Assembly (NCBI GenBank): GCA_052426225.1
Contig: JBNJNM010000009.1
Coordinates: 434,001 to 498,000 of the forward strand
DNA: 64,000 bases
Reading direction: 5' to 3'
Source: Zancudomyces culisetae HAW-14-8
Taxonomy: Eukaryota; Fungi; Kickxellomycota
Below, piece after piece: positions 13,099 to 56,900 of this stretch. The stretch's first letter is position 1. Each line of letters starts with the position of its first letter. The notes beneath the pieces were generated by a model. That model was not told where the DNA came from, did no database searches, and saw only the letters and a program-made list of their open reading frames with translations. Both the position numbers and the translations under genes were made by a program.

Positions 13099-14148
13099 CT
13101 AAAATAGTAAAGCCAATACTGATGATAAGAGTATCACTAGCGTAAATCCAGTATTCTGGAAAATAACCGGAGAAGAAACAAAAACACCATAGCTTCCATA
13201 AGTCCATATATTAGTAATTGTTGAGTAATTGGGCGATTGTCGTGCAGTTGTATCTAATAGGTACGATTTTTCAAGTCCCGTGACATTTGCAATCCAGTCA
13301 ATGTAGCTATATACACGGGTAAAGTAATTTATTTCAACACTTCCCGAATCATCAAGTTGATCAGCATGGGAATGTCCTGTACTACTCGCGACACCAGCAA
13401 GTAAATTAGTCCCATTTTTTATGTACACCAAGGGGTTTCCACGATCACCATGTAATGAAGCTAAGAAATCCTTTCCTGTTGTACAGATTAGATTTTCGTT
13501 GTTGTCCGACCAGCTTTCACTGAGTTCTCTACAGAAATTTGAAGAGGATGGCGATTGATTAATACGGTGTAGTCAATAAATTGTTTCAGGTTGCATATAG
13601 CGTCGAACGTGATCCCATCCTGCTGTAACCAAATCCATATCATCCGCTACATTTCCACTGTATATCGCTACTGGTGTAGCAATGTCCTTTGATACCGGAG
13701 ATTCTAGTTCAATAACTGCAATATCATTTTCCAATGACTTTGGAGAAAACTCGGGATGAATATGCACCTTACGTGCTCCAAATACGCCAGTGCTGTTGTA
13801 ATTTGGTATCCCTTCGCTAATAATAACTTTTGTAGAATCAAGGTGTTTTGATAATTTACCTTTCCGGTCTAAGAAACAGCTAGCTGCAGTTACTGCAGTT
13901 TGATTAGATATTAGCAAAACACTGCAGTTTTCTCCCATGTTCAAGGCTCCAATATATGGAAAATCTTCTCTCTTTGCTTGTACCCAGCTTATCATTCTCG
14001 CATTGCCATGAATGTCACTTGCCCCGTTTTGTGGAGTTACAACATTCGAATATGCATTATTAACTGAGGAAGCATGTACATTGAGAATACTTCCAAGTGG
14101 TAAGGCTGTAATAATATTTTTCAAAATTGATTTCTTGTTCAATTTCAT
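13099..14148 (-). pseudogene. Trypsin-like serine protease homologue (non-catalytic) interrupted by one in-frame TGA at 13573-13575
   Basis: Signal peptide, VTAASC, HIHPEF, ENDIAVIEL, AGW, then after the TGA the same frame continues LHRINQSPSSSNFC...GDRGNPLVY...YFTRVYSYIDWI plus hydrophobic tail; colinear with 51535-52599. Confidence 0.8.
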
Positions 14149-14649
14149 CGTTGTTGTATACTGAGTCGTTAAGTATTTGTCCGATCGTTAAGGCCAAGTT
14201 AGGAAAGGGTGAAATTCGCAATTTTAAAGAAGGAAAACTGAACTACTTGAAATAACAACTAAAAAGTCGTTAGTTTTATTCAGTTATTGCCTTACATATT
14301 CACAAATGAAATCCATCTGTATTTTACTAATGATTAAAAACCCAAAAATGAATATACGTTGATGGATTTCGTAGTTTATTTGCCAGAATTGCTAGATTGG
14401 CTTTATAATCTTTTTTTTTTTCATGCAATCAAAAGTATTGCTCTAGTGTTTATCTTTTATAATTTCAAGCAATGAAATCCCAATACCAAAAATAAATAAA
14501 AAATTAGATTATAAAATATCCCAAATTGTGGAATATTTGCGAGTATTTTATATTTTTTTAGATGAATTTATTAAATTAATATCACATAAAACTACAAAAA
14601 AAAAATAATTCCACACCATATCAATCTACTCTATTCTTTTCTGTCTCTG

Positions 14650-14685
14650 CTATGAATTACACTCCCAGCAGGCGTTGATTCAAGG
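14650..14685 (+). repeat. Dispersed inter-gene motif, copy A
   Basis: ctatgaattacactcccagcaggcgttgattcaagg; upstream AT-rich ~80 bp also resembles 26011-26090. Confidence 0.55.
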
Positions 14686-14741
14686 CTATATACGACCAGA
14701 TAGACTAATTGATATTTCAACTAGTGATTTTGATTTTTGCA

Positions 14742-17700
14742 TTAACATGACCGCTTCACTTTTTTATACCCTCCAGTCCTATACTGACAAAACTCAATTA
14801 AATATTTATCATTTACTTCTTTCGCAATCCTCATGATTGATCTCCTGTGCACAGTTACATCAGCACCATGTTTAATCAACAGTTTGATTATTTCCTCATT
14901 TTCCTGCTCGATGGCCTCCTTCAACCCATAATCCCGGTTTAGCACCAAATTTGGATCGCTTTTAAACAAAAGTTTCAACATTTCCAGATTATCGTTTTTA
15001 CAAGCCTGGATTATTCCACTTTCACTTCCACTTTCTATTTTTGCTCCCTTTTCAAGCAATAATTTCAGGATTTCCAAATAGTTGCCCTTGCATGCCCAGA
15101 GAACATAGTTGGAATTGTTAAATCCCAAGGAAACAGTATATTTTAAAAGCAACATAACTGCTTCTATATTGTTTTCTTCAATGGCGGATCTAAGATAAAA
15201 TGAACTATTACTAATTTCTGGACAGTAGAAAAGTAATAGTTCCAATATTTCAGTATCATCTAGAATGGAATACCCTAGAAAAAATGTTTTATCTCTTAAC
15301 TTTGCGCCATATTGCAATAACAGTCTGATTATTTCAATATTATTTGTGTAGAGTGCCGCAATTATAGCTATATAGTCATCTTTAACACTTATTCCATTCT
15401 CCAAAAATAATTGCACCATTTCGAAATTTTCATTTTTTATTGCAAATTTCAATAGTTCAGGATCATTGTTGAGATCGATCTTGTAAGCTAGTAGGAGTTT
15501 CAATATTTCAATATTATTTGCTCTAGCTGCTTCCTTTATACCATTTACCAAATCACTATTCTGGATAGCCTCACCCTTTTCAATTAATACCTTGGTGATC
15601 ATGTATTCTTCAGAACGATCAGGGTTTTCATCATCCAACCAAGAAACATTCTTTGTCTCTCTTTTCTTTGAGCTTGAGTTATCTTTTCTTTCCAATACTC
15701 CTAAACTGTCATAATGCTCCAGAGTCGTTTTTACCAATTCAATATTTTCAGTCATGCATGCATATTCCAATTGGTGATGACGAACACCCTTTATCACAGC
15801 ATTATTATCCAATAGATATTTCAGTGTTCTCTTGAGACCCAATTTACATGCGATTCTGACTCCATTCCGCTCTGGGTCGCTTAAATCTACTCCACTTTCT
15901 ACCAGCCATTTAACCATATTGAAACTACCAAGTAAACATGCCATGCTAATACAATCATACTCTGAATTCTTGGGTACCACACCACCATTCCTAATCCAGT
16001 GCTCCAACACCTCAACTTTATCTGATTTACACGCTTCTTCAAAACCACTCGATTCTTCATTCAGTTTTGCACCCTTACTAATAAAGTAATTTATCCAGTC
16101 AATATCACCAGCTTTATATGCTGTTCTTAAGACCAAACTATCGTATGAATTAATATCAATTCCATAATCTATCAATAGTTTCAGTATTTCAAAGTTTCGG
16201 TTGATTAATTCTGATTTTGCTTGCTCGTAGTGTCTATCATTCAACACCTCTGCATTTTTCTCGTATCCGAATTCGTTAATTTCGTCAAATTGAGTGTCGT
16301 CGAATGTGCTTTGTAGATTATTCTCAATAACGTATCTAATAATTTCAACTAAGTTATCAAGACATGCACTTTTAGCGTGGTTTTCGCGAATAGAGTATAG
16401 ATTATTTCCAAAAAGCGATTCACATGCGTAATAAATGCGCTCAGTCCTGGAATATATAATCTCTATAACTCTCTCATATATATCCACATGCTTTAGAAAC
16501 CCATCAAAATCAACATTGTTATCTGGATAGTATTGATCATAGGACTGACAAACTTCAATAAGACATAAAATTGTTTTATTAAATTTTAGCCTTGTACCAG
16601 CCTTGCTTTCCGTTTCTGAATCATTGGGTTTAGTCTTGTCCTCACTTAACAGTTTTAATAGACGCGTTATTATTTCACAATTCTTTATTTTACATAACTC
16701 TTGAATCCCTTGTGGAGCTTCCAAACCAATAGAAGAATCATGTTCCAATAAAAATCTTAGCATATCCATATTTCTGTTTTTGCTTGCAATTCTTATTCCC
16801 TTAAACTCGGGTGATTTTAAATCCGCTCCAGATTCGATAAGTAATTTGGCAACTTTGATGTTTCCAGTTTGTACTGCGTACTCTAGGCAGTGAACACTTG
16901 CCAAATTGGAGTATTTGTTGATGATTCTTTGTGCCAGCTTATAGTCGTTTTTGTATATAGCTATTTTCATTGCATTTTCGTCTAAATCACCTTTCAGTTT
17001 ATAGTTGATTCTTAAAAGATATTTTATAAGGTCGATATTACCATTTCTGTACGCCAACTCTGTTATTTTTTTAATATTTTCTGAGTTTGATCCAGATTTA
17101 AACAAGTATTTCTTGAATAAACTCTCCCTATTAAGATGTATCGCTACATCGAACAATATCTGAATGTGTCTACTACTACTAGAGTAGTTCTTTTCAAGGT
17201 ATGATATAAACTTTTTTTTATCACAGAGAATTGATTGATACGCACATAGTGTAAAGTTCAATAATACCATCTTATCTGTATTGTCATCATCCCTAATAAA
17301 AGTATAAAATTCATAATCAAAGTGTGACCCGCGAGCATCATTAATCGAATCTAAATTCTGAACAGAAAAGTTTGTGCAGATTTCTAAATCCAGAACCCTT
17401 TTAAAGAACCCAAGGTTGTTCAACCGACAACTTTGACGCCCAGCCACCAAAACACATGATATCATAAATCTATCATCAACACACCTAATACCTCTTTCAG
17501 TAGAACCACATATCTCTGGAGGAAACTCAAATTTGGTGTTGCAGATATCTATTAGCATTTCGACGCCGTTTTCCTCGGCTATAGCATTCATTCCCCAAAG
17601 CAAAAGCTCTGAAACCTGGTTAACCCTGAATAGTGATCTAATATAATGAGAATCGGTGATTTCAATATCAGCCACTTCTCTCCGTGATTTGCTTTCTTCT

Positions 17701-18158
17701 GAGAGTAAATTATCAATATCAATATCTAGGTACTCGTCCTCGTTCATAAATAAAGTACCCCTATGTAAAATCGTTGATGTACTTCTATTGATCACCACGT
17801 ACATCTTGAGCAATCTGTTTAGAACATTCCTCCACCTAAAATCGAATGCCATATCTAGTACTTTTTCGTAGTTCAGGTCTTTGAGTTTTCTCAAAACCAG
17901 TATTCCAACTGCCTCATTAGCTCCGATTCTTGTGTGTTTATCGAATAGATATCTCAACCACCATATATAGTCACTTTCTATGTTGTATAAGACATATTGG
18001 AGAATGTACTTGCTAACAACATTATCTTTTTGTGAGATATGGTGCATATTTTTGTTCAAAAGCGATAGTTGAGGATTTTGAGCAAGTGCGAATATGGTTG
18101 ACAGGATACTTGCTGGAAGTTTGTTGAAAAGATTGTTGCCTTTGTTTTTGATACCCAT
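14742..18158 (-). CDS. F-box-like / ankyrin-repeat protein (1138 aa)
   Basis: N-terminal FNKLPASILSTIFALAQNPQLSLLNK (F-box-like); many ankyrin repeats (AVQTGNIKVAKLLIESGAD, ACKGNYLEILKLLLEKGAK). Confidence 0.85.
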   Translation of the reverse strand: MGIKNKGNNLFNKLPASILSTIFALAQNPQLSLLNKNMHHISQKDNVVSKYILQYVLYNIESDYIWWLRYLFDKHTRIGANEAVGILVLRKLKDLNYEKVLDMAFDFRWRNVLNRLLKMYVVINRSTSTILHRGTLFMNEDEYLDIDIDNLLSEESKSRREVADIEITDSHYIRSLFRVNQVSELLLWGMNAIAEENGVEMLIDICNTKFEFPPEICGSTERGIRCVDDRFMISCVLVAGRQSCRLNNLGFFKRVLDLEICTNFSVQNLDSINDARGSHFDYEFYTFIRDDDNTDKMVLLNFTLCAYQSILCDKKKFISYLEKNYSSSSRHIQILFDVAIHLNRESLFKKYLFKSGSNSENIKKITELAYRNGNIDLIKYLLRINYKLKGDLDENAMKIAIYKNDYKLAQRIINKYSNLASVHCLEYAVQTGNIKVAKLLIESGADLKSPEFKGIRIASKNRNMDMLRFLLEHDSSIGLEAPQGIQELCKIKNCEIITRLLKLLSEDKTKPNDSETESKAGTRLKFNKTILCLIEVCQSYDQYYPDNNVDFDGFLKHVDIYERVIEIIYSRTERIYYACESLFGNNLYSIRENHAKSACLDNLVEIIRYVIENNLQSTFDDTQFDEINEFGYEKNAEVLNDRHYEQAKSELINRNFEILKLLIDYGIDINSYDSLVLRTAYKAGDIDWINYFISKGAKLNEESSGFEEACKSDKVEVLEHWIRNGGVVPKNSEYDCISMACLLGSFNMVKWLVESGVDLSDPERNGVRIACKLGLKRTLKYLLDNNAVIKGVRHHQLEYACMTENIELVKTTLEHYDSLGVLERKDNSSSKKRETKNVSWLDDENPDRSEEYMITKVLIEKGEAIQNSDLVNGIKEAARANNIEILKLLLAYKIDLNNDPELLKFAIKNENFEMVQLFLENGISVKDDYIAIIAALYTNNIEIIRLLLQYGAKLRDKTFFLGYSILDDTEILELLLFYCPEISNSSFYLRSAIEENNIEAVMLLLKYTVSLGFNNSNYVLWACKGNYLEILKLLLEKGAKIESGSESGIIQACKNDNLEMLKLLFKSDPNLVLNRDYGLKEAIEQENEEIIKLLIKHGADVTVHRRSIMRIAKEVNDKYLIEFCQYRTGGYKKVKRSC

Positions 18159-18820
18159 TGTGCTATGGATTTAATTATTCTTACTTTTATCTTCAATTTG
18201 ATAAGTTTGTTATGTGCTAAAGTAATGTGATCAAAATGAACAAGGTCCGAAAAGCAGAAGTGTATTGGTTTTTTTATACTATTTATCTGATTTTTTTGAT
18301 TTATTCATTTATTTTTTAGGTTTATGATTTAAATGATCGTTTGCTGCGTAATTTGAAATAACCAGCAGTTATTTGAAAATTATTGGATACATTTCAAGAT
18401 TAAACATCAAACCAGAGTGCAAGACCATTTTCAGACCAATAGCTTTATTTACTGCTGGATTTCAAGATGGAAATGTTAATGGATCAATAAGTAATATTTT
18501 TTCTTTATTATAAGACTCATTTAATGATAAAGAAAAACAACCAGGATAGGAAACGAGAATAAATAACGAGCTTTCCAAAATAAACATTATATTTTTGCTA
18601 TAATCTATCAGGCTAATGTATATTTCTTATCATTTTTGTTGTTCTCATAACCCGACATGGTTTTTATAGCTCTGGGTTATGATTACCAATGCTCAATTAT
18701 CCTTTTTACCGAGTCAACAGGTTGAGGAGATATAAGCATAGGAATCACTGTGGGTGTTTACGTAGGGAGTTTTTTTTTGATATTGCGATACTGTTCCAAA
18801 AGAATAAATTAATATCTATC

Positions 18821-18883
18821 TAATCAACCCCCCCCCCCTTTGTCACTCCAAGAACTTCATACCCACCGGAAGTTAATGCAAGG
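18821..18883 (+). repeat. Dispersed inter-gene motif, copy B
   Basis: taatcaa-C-run-tttgtcactccaagaacttcatacccaccggaagttaatgcaagg; prefix shared with copy D. Confidence 0.7.
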
Positions 18884-19109
18884 AGTATATATTAAAATGT
18901 TACTACAATTATTAAATTTCAATCTTGTGAATTTTGGTAAATTATTTTGGAAAGTAATAAAGTATTCAAAGTATTTAGATTTTTGCTTTTTTACAATATT
19001 GAATAACTTTCAAACAAAAACAGATGTGTTGTCGGTAATAAACAATATTTAAAAGGCTCAAAAACTAAAATAAATATCTATAAACTGTATTGGTGTTATG
19101 AGTAGATCA

Positions 19110-19580
19110 TTAACTGCGGCGACTGTTAGCAGTATTAATTCCACTGGCCAATCCACTAACTGCTCCGTTAATCAAGTTTCCTAAAGCACCACTGAATGGA
19201 AGAAAGCTAATGACGCTAGATACAAAGTTTCCTACTACGTTACTTTGTGCAACCCCGTTAGCAATTCCACCGAGTATGTCGTTTAAGCGAGCTTTTTCCT
19301 CAGGAGTCATATCAAAAATGCCACGATCAGAAAGTTCAGCCGCTCTAGCGTTTCGAAGCATTGAGCGTTGAGCACCATGTGGAAGTCCCGCCATACCTGA
19401 TGATGCTGACGCTGCTGCTGCTGCTGCTGCTGCTGCCACTACTGCTGCTGCCAATTGTTGGTTCTGGTATGCATTTGCAGCTGGATTTCCATACTTTCCG
19501 ACTGGCTGGGCAACTGGTGTGGCATTTGCAGCGAGCATTACACATGTAACTGATACTCCTGCTAATGTGATCTTTACCAT
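19110..19580 (-). CDS. Small secreted protein, Ala-rich pro-region and Gly-rich hydrophobic C-terminal domain
   Basis: Signal peptide (ANA-TP), poly-Ala, ELSDR-GIFD, amphipathic Gly/Ser/Asn-rich tail. Confidence 0.8.
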   Translation of the reverse strand: MVKITLAGVSVTCVMLAANATPVAQPVGKYGNPAANAYQNQQLAAAVVAAAAAAAAASASSGMAGLPHGAQRSMLRNARAAELSDRGIFDMTPEEKARLNDILGGIANGVAQSNVVGNFVSSVISFLPFSGALGNLINGAVSGLASGINTANSRRS

Positions 19581-20717
19581 TTCTTCTTAGTTTTGTTTTG
19601 TTTTAATTTTATTATTGGTATCTCGAAAAAAGAATGATGCTTTTTATGCTGATAATGTTATTTTAACTGCAGTTGATGATGTTATTGATGATCTTGTGTA
19701 TATGGACAACAGATCATGATTTATATACTTTTTTTTTCATTGCATTCTACTAAACCGATAAAAATTATTTACATTTTAGCTTAACCACAGTAAATGATGA
19801 AACAATATTTTCTCTATTTTTATAACCCTGATTCTAAAATAGAACTATAAAGTCAAAATATTTTTCTATCTTTTTACGCAAAATAGTGTAATTGAATACA
19901 TGAATATTTAGAAATGGCTTAAAATATAATTAATCAAGTGTATTGCATAATATATTAGATGTATTGGTAAATAGAACAGAAAAAAAATCACATAAATAAA
20001 TTTTCTCCATTGAACCCTTCATTCGCTTCCTCTCTATACACAGAAGTGGATCGCTAAACCTTACAATATTTTTCCACTTCCTATAACGATATTTTTGGGA
20101 GAAATGAGGTTCTAGAACAATCCTAAACATAATTTTACTTTTTATTAGTCCTATTTTTATATTTTTGGCACAAAAAGTATTCAGGAATATAGTACATATA
20201 TCAGAATTGAACTATAAAACCACTTTTCATACTAACACAAGATTGAGTTATCATTGATATATTGTGTTGTTACCTACAATAGTAATCCACAATAATTATA
20301 ATAAACTCAAATTAGATAAGCTGATTGAGGGACAAAGATAATTAACAAATGAAATAGGATGCTAATGGTTTTAATTAGAGAGTTAGTATAGAAAATATAG
20401 TAGTAAATAAAGATACAAAAAAAATTGCAATACAACAACATTTATTATTACCACATTTGCATATAGCATAATAAGATTAATCTCTCCACCTGTCACTTCT
20501 CAAGATCTCGTTGTGTTATTTTTTTAATGTTTATTATTAAATACTCTGATAATTATTTAAAAAATAATAAATGCCATACCAATCAACATCACATAATTAT
20601 ACTGAATATCGGTATTTTCCAATACATTTTGTAATTCCATTTTTTTGATAGATGAGTTTATCAAGTAAATATCAATAAAAGCATAAAAAATATCCATAAA
20701 ACATCTATCCGACTGCG

Positions 20718-20741
20718 TACCCACCGGGAGTTGGTTCAAAG
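20718..20741 (+). repeat. Dispersed inter-gene motif, copy C (3' half; a 5'-half-like piece at ~20478-20508)
   Basis: tacccaccgggagttggttcaaag. Confidence 0.6.
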
Positions 20742-21129
20742 AAGTCGTTTCCGTTCTGAGTTGAACTAAAATTTGCACACTCGTCCTACAGACTCTATCC
20801 AAGAAACTAGCTGTTCCGAGTCGAGCAATAGTACTTCGGTTTCCCTCTTCTTAGAGGAGAGAAAACCCAACCTTTTTGACTCTTCTCCAAGGAGATCACC
20901 CTACAAAAAAAAATATGCCATACTTCAACTCTTGTATCAGTTACTTCTGGGATGGGTTCCAGAATCGATAACCGCAGTGCTACTTATCTTGTACAGTCAA
21001 AATAATGTGTTCAGCTACTTTTTGCCGGTAAAAACTACCAGTCATTGATTAATAAAGTATATGGTGTCTTTATATCACTACTTTAACACATTTTGTTGAA
21101 AAACATTTGTTCAAACAACTCATAAGCAC

Positions 21130-24068
21130 CATCTTTCTATATACTTAATTTTGTCCGCCCATACTCTGACAAATATTGATCAACTTGTGATCATATAGGT
21201 TGTTTGCAACTTCCATAATCCATTTCCTATATCCTCACTTGTACTAGCATCATACTTTAACAACAGTTTGATCATCTTAGTATTTTTGTGGTTGATAGGC
21301 TTCTTCAAACCACAATCCTGGCTTAGAACCAAGTTCGGATTTCTTTCAAATAGAAGTTTCAATATTTCCAGACTATTATTCTCGCAAACCTGAATCACAC
21401 TATTTTCATGTCTATTTTTTTATTTTTGCTACCTTTTCAAATAATAGTCTCAGAATACCCATATTGTTGCTCCTACAAGCATATTACAAAAAATCTGACC
21501 CACTATTTTTAAGAAGGTGAGTATCCTTTAAAATTAATTTAACAGCCTCTAGATTTTTTTTCTCAATAGCTTCTCGAAGTAGGTAGGAGGCACCATCAAT
21601 ATCAGAACAACAGGTCAACATTAACTGCAAAGTTTCCATATCATCTAGAATAAATCACCTTAAATTGTATGAATCCTCTTTTACTTTTGCACCACGCTGC
21701 AGCAAAAACCTGATCATTTCAGTACTTCCTGCCAGAATCGCAATTTTTAGTATTTCAGTGTTCTCTTGAGACCCAATCTACATGCGATTCTGACTCCATT
21801 CCGCTCTGGGTCGCTTAAATCTACTCCACTTTCTACCAGCCATTTAACCATATTGAAACTACCAAGTAAACATGCCATGCTAATACAATCATACTCTGAA
21901 TTCTTGGGTACCACACCACCATTCCTAATCCAGTGCTCCAACACCTCAACTTTATCTGATTTACACGCTTCTTCAAAACCACTCGATTCTCCTTTTAACC
22001 TTGCACCCTTACTAATAAAGTAATTTATCCAGTCAATATCACCAGCTTTATATGCTGTTCTTAAGACCAAACTATCGTATGAATTAATATCAATTCCATA
22101 ATCTATCAACAGTTTCAGTATTTCAAAGTTTCGGTTGATTAATTCTGATTTTGCTTGCTTGTAGTGTCTATCATTCAACACCTCTGCATCATTCTCATAC
22201 CAGATCTCGCATGCTTTATACTAATTTTTTCCCAATATATTCTGCGGATTGTTTTCAATTGTATAATCAGTAGCTTCACCCAATTTATAATTTGAATCTC
22301 TTGAAATACGTATGGAATTACCAAGATTTGAAAATTCTACAAATTATAATGATCATGTATTGGAATATACAATCTCTATAACTCTCTCATATATATCCAC
22401 ATACTTTAGAAACCCATCAAAATCAACATTGTTATCTGGATAGTATTGATCATAGGACTGACAAACTTCAATAAGACACAACACCATTTTACTAAATTTC
22501 AGTCTCGTTCCAACCTAGCGTTTTCTTTCTGAGATTTTGAAGTCGATCTTATCATTGTTAAAAAGTTTTAATGTCGTTCTGCTGTTTCATTATTTTTTAT
22601 ACTACACACAGCTTTTAAATAACTTTTTGAATCGTTGTTCCAACAGAAGCACCATTTTTCAACAATAGTTGTAGCATATTCACATCTCTAATGCCAATCG
22701 TCATTCTTGCTCTTGCAAACTCGATTAATTTTAAATCAACTCCAGCTTATATAAGTTATCTTGAAATTTTGACATGACGACTTTTCATAGCCCCCTCTAA
22801 ACAAGAAATACTAAAGTGTTTGGATGCCTACTGATAATCACTTGCGTCAGTTCATATTTTTTCTTTTTTTAGCCATTATCAATGTATTTTCATCTAACTC
22901 TTCCTCCAGTTTATTGCTGTTATTTAAAAGATATTTTATGAGATCCAGACTATCATTTTTGTGCGCCAATTCTGTTATCTTTTCGATATTTCTCGAGTTT
23001 AACTCAACTTTAAAAATATATTTTTTATACAAACTCTCTCTCTCCTGTGAAATAAGGCTGCATTGAACAAAATCTGTGCGTGTCTACCACTAGAGTAGTT
23101 CTCCTCAAGAAATGTTATTAACTCTTTCCTATCCAACCCAATAGAGTAGAATGCACATATTGTATAGTTAAATAAATCTATCTCTTCCTCATATCCATAC
23201 TCCTGAATGAATATGCTCAGTTCATCATCTATCGGCACACCACGGGCGTTCACAGCCGATTCTAACTCCTGGAACGGAAAATCGAAGTTGATTTCGAAAT
23301 CCAAGATCCTTTTTAGCCACTCATTATTGTTTAATTTGCAGCTCTCGCTTGCAGCAACCGATATACAACATGTCATAAATATGTTATCGATGCATCTAAT
23401 ATTGCTTCCGACAGAACTACATATATCAGGAGGGAATTCAAACTTGGTGTTGCAAATATCCATTAGCATTTCGATATCACTCTCTCTGGCGATATTATGT
23501 ATCTGGAAGCTTAAAATAGATACGACATCAATATTAGCTATCATCGGCTTAATAATAATAGAATCAGAAACCCTGATTTTCGCTTCCTCTCTTCTTGATT
23601 CATACTCATTAGTGAATAAATTATCAATTTCAATATCTAGGTATTCACCCTCGTTCATAAATAAAATACCCTTCTGTACAACCGCAGGAGTGCTCTCATC
23701 AACTACTACATACATTTTAATCAACTTGTTTAGTATAACCCTTTACCTGTACTTGAGTGCCAGCTCCACAGCCGTTTCGTAGCTCAAGTTCTTTATTTTA
23801 CTCAAAACAAATGCCCCAACAGTCTCACTCATACACATTCGTGTGTGTTTTTCTAATATTGTTCCTAAATTTGATTCGGAACTATCTTCTTTATTTGATA
23901 AGACAAATTGAAGCGTGTATTCTTTAACAGTTTTCTCCTTTTGAGAGGCTTTGTATATACTTTTGTTTAAAAGCGATAGTTGAGGGTTCTGAGAAGTACA
24001 AATATGGTTAAATGGATGCTTGCTGGAAGTTTGTTGAAAGCACTGCTGTCGTTATTTATGGTAACCAT
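21130..24068 (-). pseudogene. Broken paralogue of the F-box-like/ankyrin gene
   Basis: Starts MVTINNDSSAFNKLPASI with an early 1-nt frameshift; fragments 22999-23724, 22847-23032, 21747-22181, 21180-21398 colinear with 14742-18158; internal deletion after 21747; 3' end approximate. Confidence 0.85.
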
Positions 24069-24956
24069 TCTATCGTAGATTGCCATATTCTTATTCCTTT
24101 CCCTCTACCTTAATTTGATTGTTGGTGTTTCGTTTAACAGGAAATATCATTAGTTAAATTGCTGATTTAAAATGAAACCAACCTCCTCATGCAGTATAGT
24201 TTTAGGCATTATAATCGGAATCTAAATAATTTTGGAGATTAAGAAATTGTCGATCCAATCTGGCTCAGATCCTGGAAACAACCTAGTAGAATCTACTAAT
24301 CTAGCATAATTCATGCTGATCATAGGCTTCTACAGCTACTGATAAGATTCACAATGTTTTCGCTTCTATTTCTTAACCTACAGTGACCAAGACAGCCTAT
24401 ATCGTACTCAAATATAAACACCACTGTTGTATAACTGTTTTGATAGTCCAAAATTATTATACTTTACTGAAAACACTTTTGATCGAGGTTTCTGGTTAAG
24501 TCAAGTTGAGCTGATGGGTGTACACAACTAGGTATTGAATGACAATATATTATCCAACGCGAGTTTATCGATTTTAGTATTTTTCGTTATTATCATTTGA
24601 CAGACTATTCTTGAGATCTTTTATTCTTAATAAATCAAAATCGTCACAATTTAACACTACATATTTCAAAAAATATTAGTTGTAGTACTTATTTATTTAT
24701 TTCTAGAGAATAGAATAACCCTAAAACTACAATACTACACAGGTTAAGGTAAAATGCAAGAGTATGCTAATAAATAATAAACAAAAAAATATCAAGAGCT
24801 CAGAGTAAAGTGGTCTTGGTTTTATTTCTAACTGTCTGTCCTTCTCAATAGTTAGAAAAAATTATGAATCTGTCAATGATATCAAAGTAAAAGCAGTGAA
24901 TACTCCAACTACAAACACGTACTGTGGGACATACAGTATGACTACTCCACTAATTC

Positions 24957-25352
24957 TTAGCATTTACATCCAGATTCACAGTGGCATTTCTCGCCTTTAT
25001 CCTCCTTGCATTCACAGGTTGCTTGTTCACATTTACATGGTCCTCCACATGTACAACCTTTACCATCTCTGCACTGACATATACTTTTTCCTTTGCACTT
25101 GCACTCATCCTCCTTGCAGATACACTTTTTACCTACTGAACACCTACAGGAGACACTGACTCCCTTATTTTCGGCACAGGTGCACTTTTCAGATTCACAA
25201 CAGCATTTTCCTTCAGAGGTGGCTGAACAACCTTGTCCCTTCTTGCAGCAGCATTCACAATTTCCAGCCTCACATGAACACCGACCCCCGGGCGTATCTC
25301 TGCACTTTCCAATATCTTTGTTGTAGCAGGCCTTTTTGTCGCATGAACTCAT
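24957..25352 (-). CDS. Long metallothionein-like Cys-rich protein (131 aa, 33 Cys)
   Basis: First ATG at 25352 (MSSCDKK); CxC and CCC motifs, Lys/Gly/Glu-rich, a single aromatic residue, no signal peptide. Confidence 0.8.
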   Translation of the reverse strand: MSSCDKKACYNKDIGKCRDTPGGRCSCEAGNCECCCKKGQGCSATSEGKCCCESEKCTCAENKGVSVSCRCSVGKKCICKEDECKCKGKSICQCRDGKGCTCGGPCKCEQATCECKEDKGEKCHCESGCKC

Positions 25353-26065
25353 CTTTGATTTACTTATTTTGGTTTGTATTGGTTTATTAGTCAACCTTAT
25401 TGGTATTATTGTTTTCTTTTTGTATTTAGTATGAAATACTAGGTGGTTTTATGATTGATATTTTCTTGTCTTTTTTGAGAAAAGTCGTGGACTATTTATG
25501 CTTTTTTATAGGTGCCAGTTTTCTTTGTACATACTCAAACTTGGATCATATTTTTATAAAAATAGAAACTTATACACTTGAAAAAGCGCATTACACGTCC
25601 GAGTTACTTTTGCCTACAATCAAGTATATATGATTATAAATCATTTAAATACACTTCTCGAGTTTCGTTATATTCATTAAAATTGCATTTACAAAACCCA
25701 TCCTGCTGCCCAATAGCGAAAATGGATCCATGCAATACATATGTGAATTTATTTGTTCATGCCTCACTATAGTTCTGTCACAAGATTTCCTGCTGTTTTT
25801 TATATAATCCCATTTCTTCCTATTCAATTGCGCTTATTCTGCTATTGCTATTTTATTAGCAAAAATATCGACCGTTTATTCACCCTCAATACACTTTTAC
25901 TATTCCAAACATTTATGAAATAATACTTTGCTTTTTTACACATTAAAATCATTTTAAACCCAGGCATTTATGTCTCTCCTACTCTGATCTTATTTTTTTC
26001 CACTATAATCTATTAATTAAACATCACATACAACTAAAAAATAATATTATTACACAACATCTTTA

Positions 26066-26126
26066 TAATCAACCCCCCCCCCCCTTTGTTCATCTAGGAA
26101 CTATATACCCACTCAAAGTTGGTTAA
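26066..26126 (+). repeat. Dispersed inter-gene motif, copy D
   Basis: taatcaa-C-run-tttgttcatctaggaactatatacccactcaaagttggttaa. Confidence 0.7.
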
Positions 26127-26250
26127 TTGAGGTTGTTTCTCATCGTATCTACCTGTATTTATTTTAATGGCAGAATAAGGTTTATTTCATTAAAAAGTTT
26201 CTAAAAAAATCAATATATAATCTAACCTCATCCTATTCCCCTTCGACACG

Positions 26251-26286
26251 CTCAAGTATTCATACCCGATGGGCATCGATTCAAGA
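26251..26286 (+). repeat. Dispersed inter-gene motif, copy E
   Basis: ctcaagtattcatacccgatgggcatcgattcaaga. Confidence 0.55.
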
Positions 26287-27945
26287 CGTTCGTTTAAGGT
26301 TTAATAAATGGCTAGCTGGAGTCACTGCTGTTTTATTAAATAGTAGTGAAACACTGTAGCCTCCGTCCACATTCTCAATTTAATAAAAGGAAATTTTTCT
26401 ATCAGCACTGGTTCCCCATTTAGGACTCTTGGATTGCTATGAGAAATTTACCTGATCCACTTTGTGGAAATATCATATGAGTCTACGTTATCACAAGCCT
26501 AAAACTCGTTAATGTGTTACTTTACTATCCCTTGGTTTGGAACTATGCTGTGGTAATCCAAAATAGTATTCCGCCCTTTTCCTACCAAACGAAGCGAATG
26601 TTGACATGAATGATTCCAAAGAGCGACGCTCTGATATAATTTATTTATTGAGAAGCTTTACAAAAATTATTTTCCGGTGGCAAGATTTTACATTTTTAGG
26701 GGAATTGCATCGTCTTATCTTTTCATTATGCTTGATGCTCAATCTTCAGTCTTCAATTTACCCAATTTTAGCTCACCTTCCAAAATATGCGTACAAATAA
26801 AAGGTAATACAAGTTTCCCTACAAAATTATGCGGGGATGTTAGTATTCAAGTATTCCACTTTAATGTTATGAACTATAGGGGATATTTTTTACTGCGTTT
26901 CAGTAAAATATACGCTGATTTGGTGTATGAAATCCTAACAAAACTGAAAAAAAAATTAGTAGAGCATGCATTTGCCGTATTTTATTGGAGAAGCAGGGAG
27001 AGGGAAGGGAGAGGGAAGGGAGACCACAAAATTGGTGGTACTTTCCGTGAAATTGAAATGATTTTCGTGACACACACTTCACTTAATTTTCTGTAAATCT
27101 GACCCGATCAGGTTCGAACGAGTATCTGTTCGTTATTGTCAGTGCTTATCGCTTTAAATAAACACTTATACTTTATAAGTGTCAAATATCTTTTCATAAA
27201 AAATTATTAGTGAATCTAGCTCGTTGAACCAACCCAAAATTTTCATTATCTACCTTGTTCAATATCATACGATATGAAAGTATCTATTCAGATAGTGAAA
27301 AAGTATATTCCACAAATCCATATGCCTCTTACTCATACGATGCACAAAAAAAAGTGCTGAAAGCAAAGTGGAGCTGTAGGACTTGGCATATTTCACATAC
27401 TTAGTTTTGTTTAAAACACATTTTTTTATTTCCACATAAGTTTACAAATTTAACTGGGAGATAATATATATATCTACAACTAGTGCCAAATAAAAAACAA
27501 AAACTCCCAGAACAATCAAATTGCATAATGTTGTACAAGAAATAATGATGAAAGAGAAAAGAAAATGCCAAGCTGTAAGTCTACTGGGTGGTGAAAACAA
27601 AGATACTAACATTCTCTTCACATAATATAATTTTCAAGCAATGAAGTGAGAGACAGCCCGTTATGTATCTTTTTGCTATTCTAAAATACTAAGTAGATTT
27701 TCTATTTGGGTTACCACGCAGTCACTTGGTAAAGAATGACTATCGTTGCTGGCAGTCTACTCTTGTGTGTATATATATATATATATGTGTATGCTTTGAT
27801 ACCATACCATACCACACCACATCATACATAAAGGTTGATGATGCAACAAGAGAAGAATCCTATGAATACTGAGGAGGAAGGATTTCCATTTCTCCTTAGA
27901 AGAGGGGCTAAAAAATACAAGACTAGATTCGCACTATAAGTAGCA

Positions 27946-32369: not shown

Positions 32370-32413
32370 TTTGAATAAGGTGATTTGAATAAGGTGATTT
32401 GAATAAGGTGATT
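32370..32413. repeat. 14-bp tandem repeat (TTTGAATAAGGTGA) x3
   Basis: Three perfect copies. Confidence 0.9.
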
Positions 32414-34765: not shown

Positions 34766-34975
34766 TTAAACAGCATCAGTCACTTCATCTACTAATGTTT
34801 TTCTTGAAAAAATTATAATTAAGGCATGGATCAACCCAGGAATAAAGAAAAAGATTGTTAGTATCAAGTTTAACCAAAACTGTGCGGTGGCCTTTCTTTC
34901 CATATAAACCGCGAGAGGTGGGATGAAGATTGCGATCAGAACCAAGACGCCTTGACTTTGCCTTTGGACTGCCAT
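34766..34975 (-). CDS. PMP3: Pmp3/UPF0057 plasma-membrane proteolipid
   Basis: IAIFIPPLAVY...FWLNLILTIFFFIPGLIHALIII. Confidence 0.92.
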   Translation of the reverse strand: MAVQRQSQGVLVLIAIFIPPLAVYMERKATAQFWLNLILTIFFFIPGLIHALIIIFSRKTLVDEVTDAV

Positions 34976-50910: not shown

Positions 50911-50945
50911 ATCATACCACCTGACTGGGATGTGCTCTTGGCAGA
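50911..50945 (-). repeat. Dispersed inter-gene motif, copy F (degenerate, closest to copy A)
   Basis: Reverse complement tctgccaagagcacatcccagtcaggtggtatgat. Confidence 0.4.
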
Positions 50946-51534: not shown

Positions 51535-52458
51535 ATGAAGTTAAACAACATTTCATTCTGTAAAAATATCCTCACAGCACTATCGCTTGGAGGTATTTCA
51601 GCTGTACATGCTTCCTCAGTTGATAATGTAGATACAAATACTGGCATATCACAGAGCGGAGATGGTGGCCTCATTAACAATGCGAGAATCCTAAATGGGG
51701 AACCAGCAAAGAGAGAAGATTTTCCATACATAGGAAGAATGAACGGGGTGACGGAGGGTGCTTACAGAGAATGTGGTATTTCACTCATTTCCGATCGAAT
51801 TGCAGTGACTGCAGCTAGCTGTTTATTAAAACAGGGCTCCAAATCAATTCAATATATGAACTATATACCAATTACTATTAGTAGTAGGATATCAAAAAAC
51901 AGTTCTTCAGGTTACTATTCATCAAATATTGTACATATTCATCCTGAGTTTTCTCCAAAGTCGTTGGAAAATGATATAGTAATTCTTGAATTAATGTCTC
52001 CGGTATCAAAGGATATTGCCACACCAGTAGCGATATATAGTGGAAATGTAACAGATATTATGGATTTGATTACAGCAGGTTGGGGCTCCACTTCGACTGG
52101 GATATCGGATGTATCTAGCGATATGCTGAACTCAGCTATGCAATCACCTTCTTCTTCAAGTATTTGTAAAGACGCCAACGCCATCTGGTCAGACAACAAC
52201 AAAAATCTTGTCTGTGCGCTAGTAAAGGACGGCAAAAGTTTGGCAAAAGGTGATGGTGGAAACCCTTTGGCGTACATAAACAATGGAGTTAATATACTTG
52301 TTGGTATTGCGAGTACTACAGGTAGATCTGAGAGTGGTGCTGATATTCGTCCGGAATATACTGAAACAAACTATTATACCCATGTATACAGCTTCATTGA
52401 CTGGATTGTAAATGTCACAGGACTTGAAAAGTCATACTTATTGAATACAGCTGTTTGA
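51535..52458 (+). CDS. Trypsin-like serine protease homologue (non-catalytic); homologous frame continues past TGA to 52599
   Basis: Signal peptide, R-ILNG, VTAASC, ENDIVILEL, AGWG, GDGGNP, YYTHVYSFIDWI. Confidence 0.85.
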   Translation: MKLNNISFCKNILTALSLGGISAVHASSVDNVDTNTGISQSGDGGLINNARILNGEPAKREDFPYIGRMNGVTEGAYRECGISLISDRIAVTAASCLLKQGSKSIQYMNYIPITISSRISKNSSSGYYSSNIVHIHPEFSPKSLENDIVILELMSPVSKDIATPVAIYSGNVTDIMDLITAGWGSTSTGISDVSSDMLNSAMQSPSSSSICKDANAIWSDNNKNLVCALVKDGKSLAKGDGGNPLAYINNGVNILVGIASTTGRSESGADIRPEYTETNYYTHVYSFIDWIVNVTGLEKSYLLNTAV

Positions 52459-52967
52459 CCCTTGCCTAACTACTCAACAATTGGTATTGTAAAGACCTAT
52501 GGGGATTATCCTATTTCCATTTCCGCATCAACCATTTTGCAAAATACCGGATTTACGCTAGTAATATTCTTATCATTGGTATTGGTTTTACTATTTTAGA
52601 TCTGTTTATGGTTTTTTTTGAAAAATTTGTTGATGTCAGTTATCTTTTTTACTTATAAATGTAAACTTTTGATTATTGTGACTAAGTAGTACTATATTAT
52701 TATATGAATTAATAATTTTGAAACATTAATAGAAGTTCACACACTAATAAAGCATTTTGTGTCTCATTGTATTGAAACAATTAGGGAAGGAATAGAGCGA
52801 ATAACAGATTAGAGGGAGGTTAGTGATAGTTAACAGCAATCAAAGTATAACAGTTATTACAAATTAAGAAATCTTATGCAAGTATCTACTCTTCAAAGTT
52901 AAAAAACATACACACGACCTATACAGATTAATACACCACTTCGTTTCTTACAGTAAAATATCTTGTA

Positions 52968-53005
52968 TCCTTGAACCAACACCCTGAGGGTAAGGGGGTT
53001 CTTAG
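52968..53005 (-). repeat. Dispersed inter-gene motif, copy G
   Basis: Reverse complement ctaagaacccccttaccctcagggtgttggttcaagga. Confidence 0.65.
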
Positions 53006-53430
53006 AAGGTCAGAGACTAGTAGTTTAGATGGGTATTGGATTTAATTATTTTTGAATATTAATATTTTCGTATTGAAACTCTTGAAAAAGCGTAAATTAC
53101 TGGACTGACAATAGATCAACTTTTTTGATTTGATGTTTAATCCTGAACGAGGTATCCAATCATCTGAATTATCAGTGTTTTCATTTGGCAATTATTTAGT
53201 AATTCATAAAACAAAAAGACTAGAAGGTTTTGTTGGTTATTTTAAATCGAGGCAAATGACAGCTTTAATCGAAAACTAATATATGGATAAATGGATCAAA
53301 AAAATGAAGAAAATAGTATAAAACTGACATAGTTCTGCTTTTTGGGGTCTATCCATCTGTATTCTTTACATTATATACAAACATAGAAAGTAACTTGAAG
53401 GAGAAAAAAAGGAATAACTCGACTTACGAT

Positions 53431-56400
53431 ATGATGAATACTACAAACAACGAAAACAATATTTTCAACAACCTGCCAGAAATTATCCTGTCAACTATAT
53501 TTGTACTTGCTCAAAACCCTCAACTATCACTATTGAACAAAAGTGCATCAAAGCAACTCAAAAGTTGAAAACTATTAGCGAGTATATGTTTTATTATACT
53601 TTATATAGCAATCAAAATTGATTTGGATGGAGGTTGGGTGACATATTCGAGAAACACACCAGAATAAACACGAATGAAACTGTCGGAATATTGTTTCTGG
53701 GTAGAATCAAGAGCCTAGAATTTGAAACTGCTCTAAAACTGGCATTCAAGTATAGATGGAAAAGTGTAATAAAGAAGCCAATTAGGATGTATGTAGAGAT
53801 TGATTGGAACACTTCAACAGTTGTACACAAAGGTACATTATTTATGAACGAGGGTGAGTATCTAGATATCGACTTTAGAAATTTGTTCTCTGAAAGAAAT
53901 GAATATCTGAGAGAACATACTGACATAAAAATTCCTGATTCTGAATATATAAGACCGCTAATAAGGGTAAATGAATATCCGAATAGTCAGCTGTGGGATA
54001 TCTACAACCTTACAGACAAAGCCAACATTGAAATGTTATTAGATATTATCAACACCAAGTTTGAATTTCCTCCAGAGATATTCATTTCATTTAGAAGAGA
54101 GACCAGATGTATTGATGAGATATTTATGATGTATTGCTTGTTGGTGGTTGTACGTAAAAGCTGCCAATCAAACAACCTTGAATGGTTCAAAAGAATTTTG
54201 GATCTGGAAAGTGACACAAACTTTTGTTTTAAAGCATTAGGATCGGTTATAAACCCTACTTATGATCCGATTGAGGCGGAATTAGAAGAGTTTGTAAGTA
54301 AATGTGGATATAAGAATGAGAAGGATTTGTTAGTTTACACTCTGTGCACATTTTATTCATTTAAATTAAAAACAAAAAGACTAATATCATATCTCAAAGA
54401 TAACTACACTAGTATTAGGCACGCACTAATATTTTTCGATGCAGCGGTATATAATGGATGAGTGAGTTTGATGAAGAAGTATTTTTTCAAAATCGAATTA
54501 AACTCGCAAAATATTAGAAATCTTAATGATTTTGCGTACAAGATTGGTGATGTGAATAGCATAAAATCACTTTTAAACAAAGTGATAAACACACGGGAGA
54601 GCTGGATAAGAATGCACTTAAAACATCTATAAAAAAGAAAGATCCCGAATTGGTAAAAGATGTTATATGAAAATATCCGAAAACGGTAAGTGTTCTCTGC
54701 CTAGAGGAAGCAGTGAGAAGTGGTGATGTCATGATTGCAAATTTGCTTGTCAATTCTGGATTAGGTTTAAAATTACCCGAGTTTTCTAGAATTGGTATTG
54801 CAAACGAAAATAAAAATAATGATATTCTACAAAATCCATGGGACGATAATTGGAATTCGAAATCCCCTAGTTTTGATGGAATAAAAATTGCATGCAAAAA
54901 TGTAAATACGAATGTGCTACTGCTGTTGTTAGAAAATGGTGTTTCTGCTGAACTAGCTGGTCAATTTGCGATTAAAAATCTGTGCAAAGTGACAAATTAT
55001 CAGATAGTAAAACGACTATTAGAGCTCTATGATAAAAACAAAGTTTAGGATGGTTTTAAATCGAAAATATCAGAAACTGAAGTCAAAGTAGGAAAAAGTC
55101 TGGGAATTAATGAAACAATTTTATGTCAAATTGAAGAAAACCAAAATAAGTTTGACATATGTGCTGAACGTGGGGATATTCTTCGATATATCGGTTTATA
55201 CGAAAGTGTAGTAGAGATTATAAAATCGAGTAGAAAAGGCATTGTCAATGTATATGCAATGTATTTTACGAAATCATCAGGTTATTCTCGTTTCGAGTAA
55301 ATTACAAGAGATTGTCATGATAAAAAAGTTGAAAAGGTAATTATTTCATTAAGAATACTCTACAAAGCTCATTCAACGACAATGAATCCAATGAAGCAAA
55401 CGAGTCAAAATACGGAAACAATGCAGAGGTGTTGAACGATAAAAACTACGAGCAAGCAAAATCAGAATTAATCAACCGAAACTTTGAAATACTGAAACTA
55501 TTGATAGATTATGGAATTGATATTAATTCATACGATAGTTTGGTCTTAAGAACATCATACAAAGCTGGTGATATTGACTGGATAAATTACTTTATTAGTA
55601 AGGGTGCAAAACTGAATGAAGAATCGAGTGGTTTTGAAGAAGCGTGTAAATCAGATGAAGTTGAGGTGTTGGAGCACTGGATTAGGAATGGTGGTGTAGT
55701 ACCCAAGAATCCAGAGTATGATTGTATTAGCATGGCATTTTTACTTGTTAGTTTCAATATGGATAAATGGCTGGTAGAAAGTGGAGTAGATTTAAGCGAC
55801 CCAGAGCGGAATGGAGTCAGAATCGCATGTAGATTGGGTCTCAAGAGAACACTGAAATATCTATTGGATAATAATGCTGTGATAAAGGGTGTTCGCCATA
55901 ACCAATTGGAATGTCATGCATGACTGAAAATGTTGAATTGATAAAAACGATTCTGGAGCACTATTACAGTTTAGGAGTATTGGAAAGAAAAGATAACTCT
56001 AGCTCAAAGGAAAGAGAGACAAAGAATGTTTCTTGGATGGATGATGAAAACCCTGATCGTTCTGAAGAATACATGATCACCAAAGTATTAATTGAAAAGG
56101 GTGAGCCTATCCATAATGGTGATTTGGTAAATGGTGTAAAGGAAGCAGCTAGAGCAAATAATATTGAAATATTGAAACTCCTACTAGCTTACAAGATCGA
56201 TCTCAACAATGATTTGATAATACTGAAATCTGCAATAAAAAATGAAAATTTCGAAATGGTGCAATTATTTTTGGAGAATGGACTAATTACTAAAATTCAT
56301 TCAAGCAATATAAATGAAAGATACAAAACAAAAAACTATGTCAATGAAAATATTTGTAATCAAAATGGCGCAAAGTTGGATATAATTTCACAATATCTTC

Positions 56401-56900
56401 AAATTTATTCTGATCTAGATAATATATGTATATTGAGACTAATACTTTTATATTCATCCTAGAGTGGTGCTGATCCAAACTTACTACAAGCTACTATTCA
56501 GAAAAACAAAACTGAGGGAACTAGGTTGCTTTTGATGCGTGTGGATACATTAGCCAATTATGGATATTATCTCACCTTTGATGCTAGTAAGAACAATAAC
56601 CTGGAGCTTTTAGTAATGCTGTTTACGAAGGGGACAAAAATACATAAAGGTCGAATAAGTGAAGTAGCTCAGGAATGCCTAAATAATAATCTAGAAATGT
56701 TAACGCTTTTATTTGAAAGAAATCATAATTTGGTACTAAAATGGGAATATGGGCTCAAGATAGCATGTGTTAAAAAAAACATGGTGCTGATACAAGTGAT
56801 CATATTGGTTCAATATTAGAAATAGCAAGAGGACTAAATGATATGAACTATTTGAGTATTGTCAAAGTATGGTAAATGCAAAATTTGTCTCTAAGAATTA
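53431..56900 (+). pseudogene. Broken paralogue of the F-box-like/ankyrin gene
   Basis: MMNTTNNENNIFNNLPEIILSTIFVLAQNPQLSLLNK then multiple frameshifts/stops; fragments colinear with 14742-18158; 3' end approximate. Confidence 0.85.

What the first reader, a model, noticed from the sequence alone, without database searches (positions are those of the whole stretch)
13099..26290. Cassette-like accessory array: co-oriented genes punctuated by a recurring ~35-bp motif with a CCC-NNN-GGG core
Seen: five unrelated accessory genes (protease homologue, ankyrin, secreted peptide, ankyrin pseudogene, metallothionein) all on -, with related motifs on + at 14650, 18848, 20718, 26094 and 26251 (only a weak trace near 24740-24765). 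The second island, whose genes are on +, has the motif on - at 50911 and 52968. So the motif keeps a fixed orientation, several hundred bp to ~1.1 kb upstream of a start codon. The best copies keep a palindrome with a variable centre (CCC-ACC-GGG, CCC-GAT-GGG, ACCC-TCA-GGGT), usually followed by GTTGGTTCAA-like sequence. I did not notice full copies among the core genes. Inference: the motif marks unit boundaries (motif + promoter + CDS + 3'UTR) of a gene-shuffling system, e.g. a recombination site, the end of a gene-capturing element, or a shared regulatory site. It also loosely resembles the anticodon-to-T-loop part of a tRNA-Leu. No recombinase is visible in the window.
Basis: partly seen in the sequence, partly recalled or inferred. 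Interest (0 to 1): 0.8.

Follow-up and report, generated by a model that had tools for sequence, protein, structure and literature searches.

The report
Mini-element joints in fungal gene arrays
In a mosquito-gut fungus, six decayed copies of one ~80-140-base DNA element sit, all facing the same way, at the joints between unrelated accessory genes, and they are likely the ends of a rolling-circle-type jumping element that carried those genes into rows.

Summary
The window is from the insect-gut fungus Zancudomyces culisetae. The motif is real: six copies (14664, 18862, 20720, 26108, 26265 on +; 52990 on -) score 137.7 bits leave-one-out against at most 115.6 in 26 post-hoc null searches. The copies at 50911 and 24750 are not supported. 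The motif is the fixed end of an 80-140-bp element; its tail ends at a T-run in 4 of 6. All six lie between accessory genes, antisense to them. In the three copies where a paralogue allows the test, the element marks a joint, not a plain insertion. Copy F cuts a trypsin-like gene exactly at a TTT, which copies C and E share at the same offset. The anatomy best fits a non-autonomous Helitron2/Helentron-like end moving cargo one-endedly (0.4). Against it: weak hairpin, no full subterminal repeat, no transposase seen, under 1.5 kb of annotated rolling-circle DNA in this species. It fails attC, Helitron1 and tRNA tests. No genome or reads were available, so copy number, empty sites and the enzyme are untested. 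A dedicated eukaryotic cassette system remains possible (0.15).

The parts
13099..14148 (-). Trypsin-like (S1) gene 1, signal-peptide-like start, in-frame stop at codon 192
   Evidence: Pfam Trypsin; 98% identical to Z. culisetae OMH80899, which ends at the same codon
14553..14691 (+). Element copy A: T7 edge, tail, core at 14664, palindrome end
   Evidence: promoter homology with trypsin 2 stops at 14550
14742..18158 (-). Intact ankyrin-repeat gene, 1138 aa; N-terminus looks F-box-like by eye (no Pfam hit)
   Evidence: closest relatives Z. culisetae 45-55%
18770..18889 (+). Element copy B: T9 edge, C11 run, core at 18862
   Evidence: blastn to E 1e-6
19110..19580 (-). Small predicted secreted protein, 156 aa, multicopy family
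   Evidence: 5 Z. culisetae relatives, best 97%
20640..20747 (+). Element copy C: T7 edge, 8-bp asymmetric inverted repeat, internal deletion of about 27 bp, core at 20720, followed by TTT
21135..24069 (-). Ankyrin pseudogene (frameshifts, stops)
24720..24775 (+). Possible decayed copy D; not supported
   Evidence: null fraction 0.073; below shuffles
24957..25352 (-). Cys-rich metallothionein-like gene, 131 aa (label from composition; no Pfam hit)
   Evidence: one relative, Z. culisetae OMH82272, 92%
25993..26135 (+). Element copy E: T7 edge, C12 run, core at 26108, followed by TTT
26175..26292 (+). Element copy F, next to E with no gene between; core at 26265; fixed edge at 26292
   Evidence: left edge approximate
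26293..26493 (-). 5' fragment of a trypsin-like gene, cut in mid-frame at F's fixed edge; the TTT at 26293-26295 aligns with the gene's own TTT
   Evidence: rest of gene not found in three places tested
51535..52600 (+). Trypsin-like gene 2, stop at codon 308 ahead of the family's usual end; no element upstream
52963..53055 (-). Element copy G: core at 52990; short tail fused to the ankyrin promoter
53431..56870 (+). Ankyrin pseudogene of island 2

Best explanation
The motif is the fixed end of a small (80-140 bp) decayed repeat that sits at the joints between accessory genes, and it is likely a non-autonomous rolling-circle (Helitron2/Helentron-like) element that carried neighbouring genes by one-ended copying. 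Shown: six homologous copies with one polarity, a sharp palindrome-side edge near +27, a ragged tail, and joints at A, F and G. Inferred: a HUH transposase encoded elsewhere starts at the palindrome end and runs through the tail past the T-run edge. It copies the promoter, gene and a variable length of 3' flank, and joins the palindrome end to a T-rich target, often in or behind another accessory gene. Repeated rounds build a same-sense row in which each unit begins with an element. Later gene conversion between paralogues blurs the far ends. The copies are about 64% identical, so the events are likely old.
For: Fixed edge from three lines. (1) C, E and F share G|TTT at +27|+28 (null 0.034). 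(2) F folds as DNA with its outer stem closing at +27. (3) The trypsin fragment aligns without gaps from +28, its own TTT included. A run of 7-9 T marks the other edge in 4 of 6, and A's T-run is where trypsin promoter homology starts. C carries an 8-bp asymmetric inverted repeat between that edge and the DNA just before the palindrome (null 0.019 of 161 T-runs); by eye it has a 6-bp hairpin at the edge. Stop-to-edge distance is about 50, 220, 360 and 390 bp or mid-gene (variable end). Flanks do not rejoin as plain insertions. Gene order differs between islands (ankyrin then trypsin; trypsin then ankyrin), and a third trypsin-ankyrin pair has consecutive accessions on an 8,201-bp contig of the public draft. 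Literature passages: Helitron2 elements keep 3' ends, are 5'-ragged, capture sequence upstream of the 5' end and insert after TTTT (PMC3627910). HINE/DINE-1 have subTIRs 38-60 bp and a 5-10-bp palindrome 8-35 bp from the 3' end, T strings at the borders, and go with functional gene duplications (PMC4067079).
Against: No RepHel or other HUH gene among the 23 window ORFs scanned. RepeatMasker gave only 0-1,414 bp of rolling-circle repeats in seven Z. culisetae assemblies, against 3.0 Mb retroelements and 2.1 Mb unclassified in the best one (PMC12611240). Hairpin weak: 1 of 12 folds reaches z -2; no covariation above shuffles (145/500); arm self-matching is only 15/720 for outer arms, 295/720 and 114/720 for two other windows, 26 and 19/720 as DNA, not significant as RNA (windows chosen after looking). 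The inverted repeat is 8, 6, 5 and 5 bp in the 4 copies with a T-run, short of the 11 or more that define the families. A, B and G lack TTT at the fixed edge. T6 runs occur in 41% of such windows by chance. A TTT target does not explain why copies lie only between accessory genes. No empty site, genome-wide count or circle could be examined.
Confidence: 0.4

Rival explanations
1. Passive repeat: a small dispersed repeat of any origin, perhaps kept as a shared regulatory or terminator module. Homologous recombination between copies and between paralogous genes excised, moved and stacked the genes, with no enzyme of its own.
For: Core identity 0.64 and tail 0.66 are no higher than paralogue promoters and 3' flanks (0.62-0.71), so no sign of selection on a site. 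The ankyrin paralogues show recent conversion patches of 96-100% in a 65-73% background. Recombination between copies also gives unrelated flanks.
Against: Circle excision and re-entry should leave N+1 copies around N genes, yet the outer borders have no supported copy: 12736 (0.25), 51046 (0.67), 57264 (0.008 nominal, inside an unrelated ORF, no flank homology). It does not by itself explain a cut in mid-gene exactly at the fixed edge, or uniform polarity over four gene families.
Confidence: 0.22
2. Dedicated cassette system: the palindrome is a site for a site-specific (tyrosine) recombinase that excises and inserts one-gene cassettes in a fixed orientation, a eukaryotic counterpart of integron arrays.
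For: One site per joint, strict polarity, unrelated host-interaction-type genes, an empty unit (F-E), reshuffled order between islands. Imperfect dyad with a variable 3-nt centre, and AAC/GTT-like triplets on its arms in some copies (columns).
Against: RYYYAAC in 0 of 6 and GTTRRRY in 1 of 6, outside the dyad. Genes carry their own promoters. Arms match within a copy no worse than across a would-be cassette (outer-arm scores 5, 9, 9.5, 0, 9, 7 against 5, 1, 7). A gene is cut in mid-frame. No recombinase among the ORFs scanned.
Confidence: 0.15
3. Retro-derived tail: read in gene sense, the element is hairpin + purine tract + AT-rich stretch + A7-9. It could be the 3' tail or mini-LTR of a retroelement family by which transcripts were tagged and re-inserted.
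For: Retroelements are the largest repeat class of this species (PMC12611240). The A-run and purine tract are visible in the sequence. F has a 9-bp flanking direct repeat (0.038 per copy).
Against: The fixed edge is on the hairpin side, not the A side. Paralogues share 400-450 bp of upstream DNA, which points to DNA-level movement. Only 1 of 6 has a candidate duplication (about 0.2 over six).
Confidence: 0.13
4. Convergent regulatory sites (transcription-factor or terminator) in co-regulated accessory genes, with no part in rearrangement.
For: Constant polarity and position in spacers; blocky conservation.
Against: Collinear tails with shared homopolymer runs and indels show common descent. 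Paralogues differ in having it or in its distance (trypsin 2 none; ankyrins 441 against 704 bp). Copy F has no gene behind it.
Confidence: 0.1

Closest known systems
Non-autonomous Helitron2/Helentron elements (HINE, DINE-1; one-ended CRe-1,2,3 of Chlamydomonas; FoHeli of Fusarium)
   Same: Short non-coding repeat, conserved palindrome end, ragged other end, T-rich borders, a short asymmetric inverted repeat in one copy, link to gene duplicates (passages of PMC3627910, PMC4067079, PMC5148889, PMC11417382).
   Different: Inverted repeat at most 8 bp, hairpin weak, no partner transposase found. Here the copies punctuate ordered rows of whole, unrelated, co-oriented genes with promoters rather than lying dispersed.
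Canonical Helitron1 gene capture (and the ToxB Helitron-like unit of Pyrenophora, bioRxiv 10.1101/2025.11.13.688278, passages)
   Same: Gene-bearing units in tandem with a short junction sequence between them; no target duplication.
   Different: No CTRR at the fixed edge, no TC start, no A|T target; units carry different genes, not copies of one.
Integron cassette arrays and attC sites (PMC5027507, passages)
   Same: One oriented imperfect palindrome per joint in a row of unrelated accessory genes.
   Different: Eukaryote; no R boxes, no L box, no stable fold; genes have own promoters; 50-90-bp tail; no integrase seen.
Replitrons (PMC10288648, passages); IS91/ISCR and IS200/IS605 ends (recalled, apart from mentions)
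   Same: HUH-type ends with a weak terminal palindrome and one imprecise end that carries flanking DNA.
   Different: No terminal direct repeat pair shown. The searched pattern found 1 match in GTDB genomes, 0 in viral and 0 in metagenome contigs, so no bacterial family with this sequence was seen.

Membership tests
Helitron2/Helentron non-autonomous element (HINE) | Subterminal inverted repeats of 11-15 bp, one at the 5' edge, one 20-60 bp from the 3' end | tested here: inconclusive
   8 bp in C (null 0.019), 6, 5 and 5 bp in B, A, E; copies are about 64% identical, so decay could hide it
Helitron2/Helentron non-autonomous element (HINE) | Short palindrome 8-35 bp from the 3' end | tested here: inconclusive
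   CCC-NNN-GGG ends 19 bp from the edge, perfect in 3 of 6; folding and covariation not above shuffles
Helitron2/Helentron non-autonomous element (HINE) | Insertion in TT / T strings at both borders | tested here: inconclusive
   T7-9 at one edge in 4 of 6, TTT at the other in 3 of 6, both in 2 of 6; no empty site available
Helitron2/Helentron non-autonomous element (HINE) | Autonomous RepHel partner with the same ends | not testable with these tools
   No genome held; none among 23 window ORFs; little annotated rolling-circle DNA in the species
Helitron1 | 3' hairpin followed by CTRR, 5' TC, A|T target | tested here: not met
   CTRR within +9..+40 in 1 of 6, beyond the edge
Integron attC | RYYYAAC / GTTRRRY boxes | tested here: not met
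   0 of 6 and 1 of 6
Integron attC | Stable single-strand hairpin with L box and extrahelical bases | tested here: not met
   inner stem 3-4 bp; 1 of 12 folds at z -2
Integron attC | IntI or other tyrosine recombinase acting on the site | not testable with these tools
   none among ORFs scanned; genome not held
tRNA or tRNA-derived SINE | Paired T-stem, cloverleaf, A and B boxes | tested here: not met
   T-stem 0-2 of 5; no ARAGORN or Rfam tRNA hit at the copies
LINE/SINE or LTR-type retro-insertion | Target-site duplication, fixed poly(A) end or TG..CA LTR with primer site | tested here: inconclusive
   one 9-bp direct repeat in 6 copies; A-run in 4 of 6 but on the variable side
TIR transposon / Pack-type (MITE, Pack-MULE) | Inverted copies at the two ends of a unit | tested here: not met
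   all five copies of island 1 are in direct orientation

The most novel reading that the evidence does not exclude
Z. culisetae has a dedicated, oriented gene-cassette system: one short element marks every joint of rows of accessory genes (proteases, ankyrin proteins, secreted peptides, metal binders), and an enzyme adds or swaps whole promoter-bearing units there, a eukaryotic analogue of integron arrays built on a domesticated single-strand recombination end.
Probability: 0.15. Interest if true: 0.9.

Novelty: new variant of a known kind. Interest (0 to 1): 0.55.

Why it matters
How small fungal symbionts assemble and reshuffle their host-interaction genes is poorly known outside Starships and a few Helitron cases in Dikarya. 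Here one short, unannotated element sits at 6 of 7 joints between accessory units of different families, with strict polarity. If it is a rolling-circle end, it is a clean case of one-ended capture building multi-gene arrays in an early-diverging fungus where such elements are thought nearly absent. If it is a recombinase site, it would be an integron-like array in a eukaryote, which my search did not find described. The long-read genome of the species exists, so both readings can be tested at once by profile search.

Tried and rejected
No whole genome is held. None of 10 window proteins is in the collection letter for letter. No metagenome locus encodes the trypsin family. Pattern scans: viral 0, metagenome 0, GTDB 1 match, about what chance gives by my rough estimate, not followed up. 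Earlier scan notes: nothing for this genome or its relatives; 8 bacterial or phage cassette notes were listed and not used. Extra copies at 12700, 24750, 50911, 51030, 57270 and 27230 were tried and not accepted. Rank-above-all-others as a significance test was rejected after the null reached it too. The first pair count used misplaced columns and was redone. tRNA-Leu, attC, Helitron1, snoRNA and other Rfam families were rejected. A coding remnant or splice acceptor was considered by eye: 1-nt indels in F and G break frame, and two host introns read in the window lack a pyrimidine tract. Likeness to IS200/IS605 right ends, IS91 tetranucleotides, Fanzor omega-RNA, SECIS and Reb1/Zap1 sites is recalled and untested. 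Papers: searches on Zancudomyces with transposon terms, Smittium with recombinase, integron-like in eukaryotes and Helitron terms showed no description of this element. Supplements searched: PMC12611240 (no hit), PMC11417382 (no Harpellales), PMC10799480 (species in the genome table only, no fusion rows). Supplements of bioRxiv preprints were not seen and could list Harpellales elements.
Full report
Organism and setting. The window is eukaryotic. Core genes include nucleoporin Ndc1, PAF acetylhydrolase, a C2H2 factor, prephenate dehydratase, CPSF73, a cyclin and a PfkB kinase. The 11 best hits of the trypsin-like protein are Zancudomyces culisetae (11 of 14 hits). Trypsin 1 is 98% identical to OMH80899 and stops at the same codon; the small secreted protein is 97% identical to AX774_g5139. 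So this is Z. culisetae, a Harpellales gut fungus of aquatic insect larvae. No genome, reads or related loci could be had, so all DNA evidence comes from these 64 kb.

Is the motif real? Six copies have the first C of the core at 14664 (A), 18862 (B), 20720 (C), 26108 (E) and 26265 (F) on +, and 52990 (G) on -. Held out in turn, each outranks every non-copy among 127,918 positions, with and without gaps. The null also reached six top ranks in 8 of 26 replicates, but its best summed scores were 96.5-115.6 bits against 137.7 for the real set, and its minima at most 14.1 against 15.7. The best family in the real non-accessory non-coding DNA scored 116.2. With the tail included, held-out nhmmer E-values are 5e-10 to 3.5e-3. 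E and F have the weakest cores; E is tied to B by a 65-bp blastn match (1e-6). The copy at 50911 and the trace at 24750 are not supported.

Anatomy. On + in island 1 the element reads: T-run, AT-rich stretch, an ATC(T/A)A block, a pyrimidine tract (C11-12 in B and E), then GAAY, 5-7 bases, CCC-NNN-GGG, and GTTGRTTCAAG. Against real decoy spacers, 9 of 15 pairs share the first 70 bp of tail, 2 of 15 (A-C, A-E) share to 120 bp, and none beyond. On the palindrome side 0 of 15 pairs match at +22..+45 and 1 of 15 at +45..+120. The unit is thus 80-140 bp with one sharp and one ragged end. Mean identity is 0.64 in the core and 0.66 in the tail, like the 0.62-0.71 of paralogue promoters and 3' flanks: old copies, no sign of extra constraint. 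The dyad is imperfect. CCC/GGG is whole in 3 of 6, 1 of 12 folds reaches z -2, and pair counts do not beat shuffles. Arms match their own copy slightly better than others in three of seven permutation tests (15, 19 and 26 of 720; the other four 114-295 of 720).

Placement. All six copies are antisense to the genes on both sides and lie between accessory genes. None lies in 22.3 kb of other non-coding DNA (p 4e-4; 1.5e-3 with E and F as one). In gene sense island 1 runs: trypsin fragment, F, nothing, E, metallothionein-like gene, (no supported copy), ankyrin pseudogene, C, secreted protein, B, ankyrin, A, trypsin 1. Island 2 runs: trypsin 2, G, ankyrin pseudogene. So 6 of 7 inner joints carry a copy and none of the 4 outer borders has a supported one. 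Three of those borders were scored: 0.25, 0.67 and a nominal 0.008 without flank homology. The fourth has no hit in the right orientation in the window-wide scan.

Breakpoints. (i) The trypsin fragment 26493-26293 aligns with trypsin 1 without a gap up to a TTT that both share; F's edge follows directly, and the rest of the gene was not found in three places tested. C and E have the same G|TTT at the same offset (null 0.034). (ii) Trypsin 1 and 2 share 400 bp upstream, ending at 14550, three bases from A's T-run; trypsin 2 has no element there. (iii) The two ankyrin promoters share DNA up to 53045, inside G's tail, while B lies about 300 bp further out. In none of five tests do the flanks of A, F or G rejoin as an empty site would. 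Against neat cassettes, 3'-flank homologies end about 60, 180 and 190 bp short of A, G and C, and the ankyrin genes show recent conversion patches. In the public draft the families are large: 11 trypsin clusters and 5 peptide clusters. Another trypsin-ankyrin pair has consecutive accessions on an 8,201-bp contig, and two peptide copies lie two loci apart on an 11,419-bp contig. Their spacers could not be read.

Mechanism. A fixed end joined even to mid-gene DNA at TTT, a ragged other side, cargo always beyond the tail, no consistent target duplication (1 of 6) and a variable loop fit one-ended, single-strand (HUH) transposition. Passages of PMC3627910 describe Helitron2 copies with intact 3' ends, ragged 5' ends, capture upstream of the 5' end and insertion after TTTT. 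Passages of PMC4067079 give HINE geometry and the link of DINE-1 to gene duplications. Copy C shows an 8-bp asymmetric repeat in about the expected places (null 0.019). I put this at 0.4. The enzyme, direction of copying and target choice are inferred. The counter-evidence is real: weak structure, short repeats, TTT in only half the copies, and at most 1.4 kb of annotated rolling-circle DNA in the species (PMC12611240; one part of the text, passages and the supplement search). Rivals are passive recombination between repeats (0.22), a dedicated recombinase site (0.15), a retro-derived tail (0.13) and a purely regulatory site (0.10).

Comparison and novelty. It works most like a non-autonomous Helitron2/Helentron end, but membership is unproven: three features inconclusive, one untestable. 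It fails the tests for Helitron1, attC, tRNA-derived and TIR elements. In layout it resembles an integron array. My searches found no account of this element or of such arrays in Harpellales; the library lacks most subscription papers. Also seen: passages of PMC10288648 and its preprint, PMC5027507, PMC5148889, PMC11417382, PMC5954228, PMC11630075, PMC10799480, and bioRxiv 2025.11.13.688278 and 2025.06.16.659975; none was read whole. Verdict: a real and undescribed feature, most likely a new variant of gene capture by a small mobile element, with a modest chance of something stranger. Interest 0.55.

Noticed in passing
window 19110-19580 (-): The secreted protein has a signal-like start, an Ala run and a C-terminal amphipathic-looking stretch after basic sites, like a peptide precursor; at least five relatives, all Z. 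culisetae, no Pfam family.
   Followed up: partly
window 14742-18158, 21135-24069, 53431-56870: Ankyrin paralogues are mosaics: 96-100% identical over nt 2100-2700 of the intact gene, 65-73% elsewhere, which points to recent gene conversion across 35 kb and opposite strands. The N-terminus looks F-box-like by eye; Atlas look-alikes of a stored homologue are mostly viral and oomycete ankyrin proteins (lead only).
   Followed up: partly
window 13099-14148 and 51535-52600: Both trypsin-like genes have a stop ahead of the family's hydrophobic C-terminal tail; the active-site His position reads AASC in the family, so these are likely non-catalytic protease homologues.
   Followed up: partly
window 58659-60267 and about 60600-61580: Two Tc1/mariner-type remnants: the first has 220-bp terminal inverted repeats (83%), the second a DDE_3 hit; a 220-bp tandem pair follows at 61578-62035.
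   Followed up: no
window 62333-62403 (-): tRNA-His(GTG) gene.
   Followed up: no
window 57207-57428 (-): A 74-codon ORF of higher GC just behind island 2, no Pfam hit; it holds a 14-of-15 match to the right half of copy C near the position expected from the paralogue, without flanking homology.
   Followed up: partly
window 28669-36959: An 8.3-kb stretch without an ORF of 100 codons upstream of the C2H2 zinc-finger gene; no copy of the element in it.
   Followed up: no
window 12167-12304: An AT-rich inverted repeat of about 42 bp arms upstream of the PAF-acetylhydrolase gene, near the border of island 1.
   Followed up: no
window 27210-27240 (-): A short match to the right half of the motif in the opposite orientation, 750 bp beyond the trypsin fragment; E 2.7-8.4, probably chance.
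   Followed up: partly
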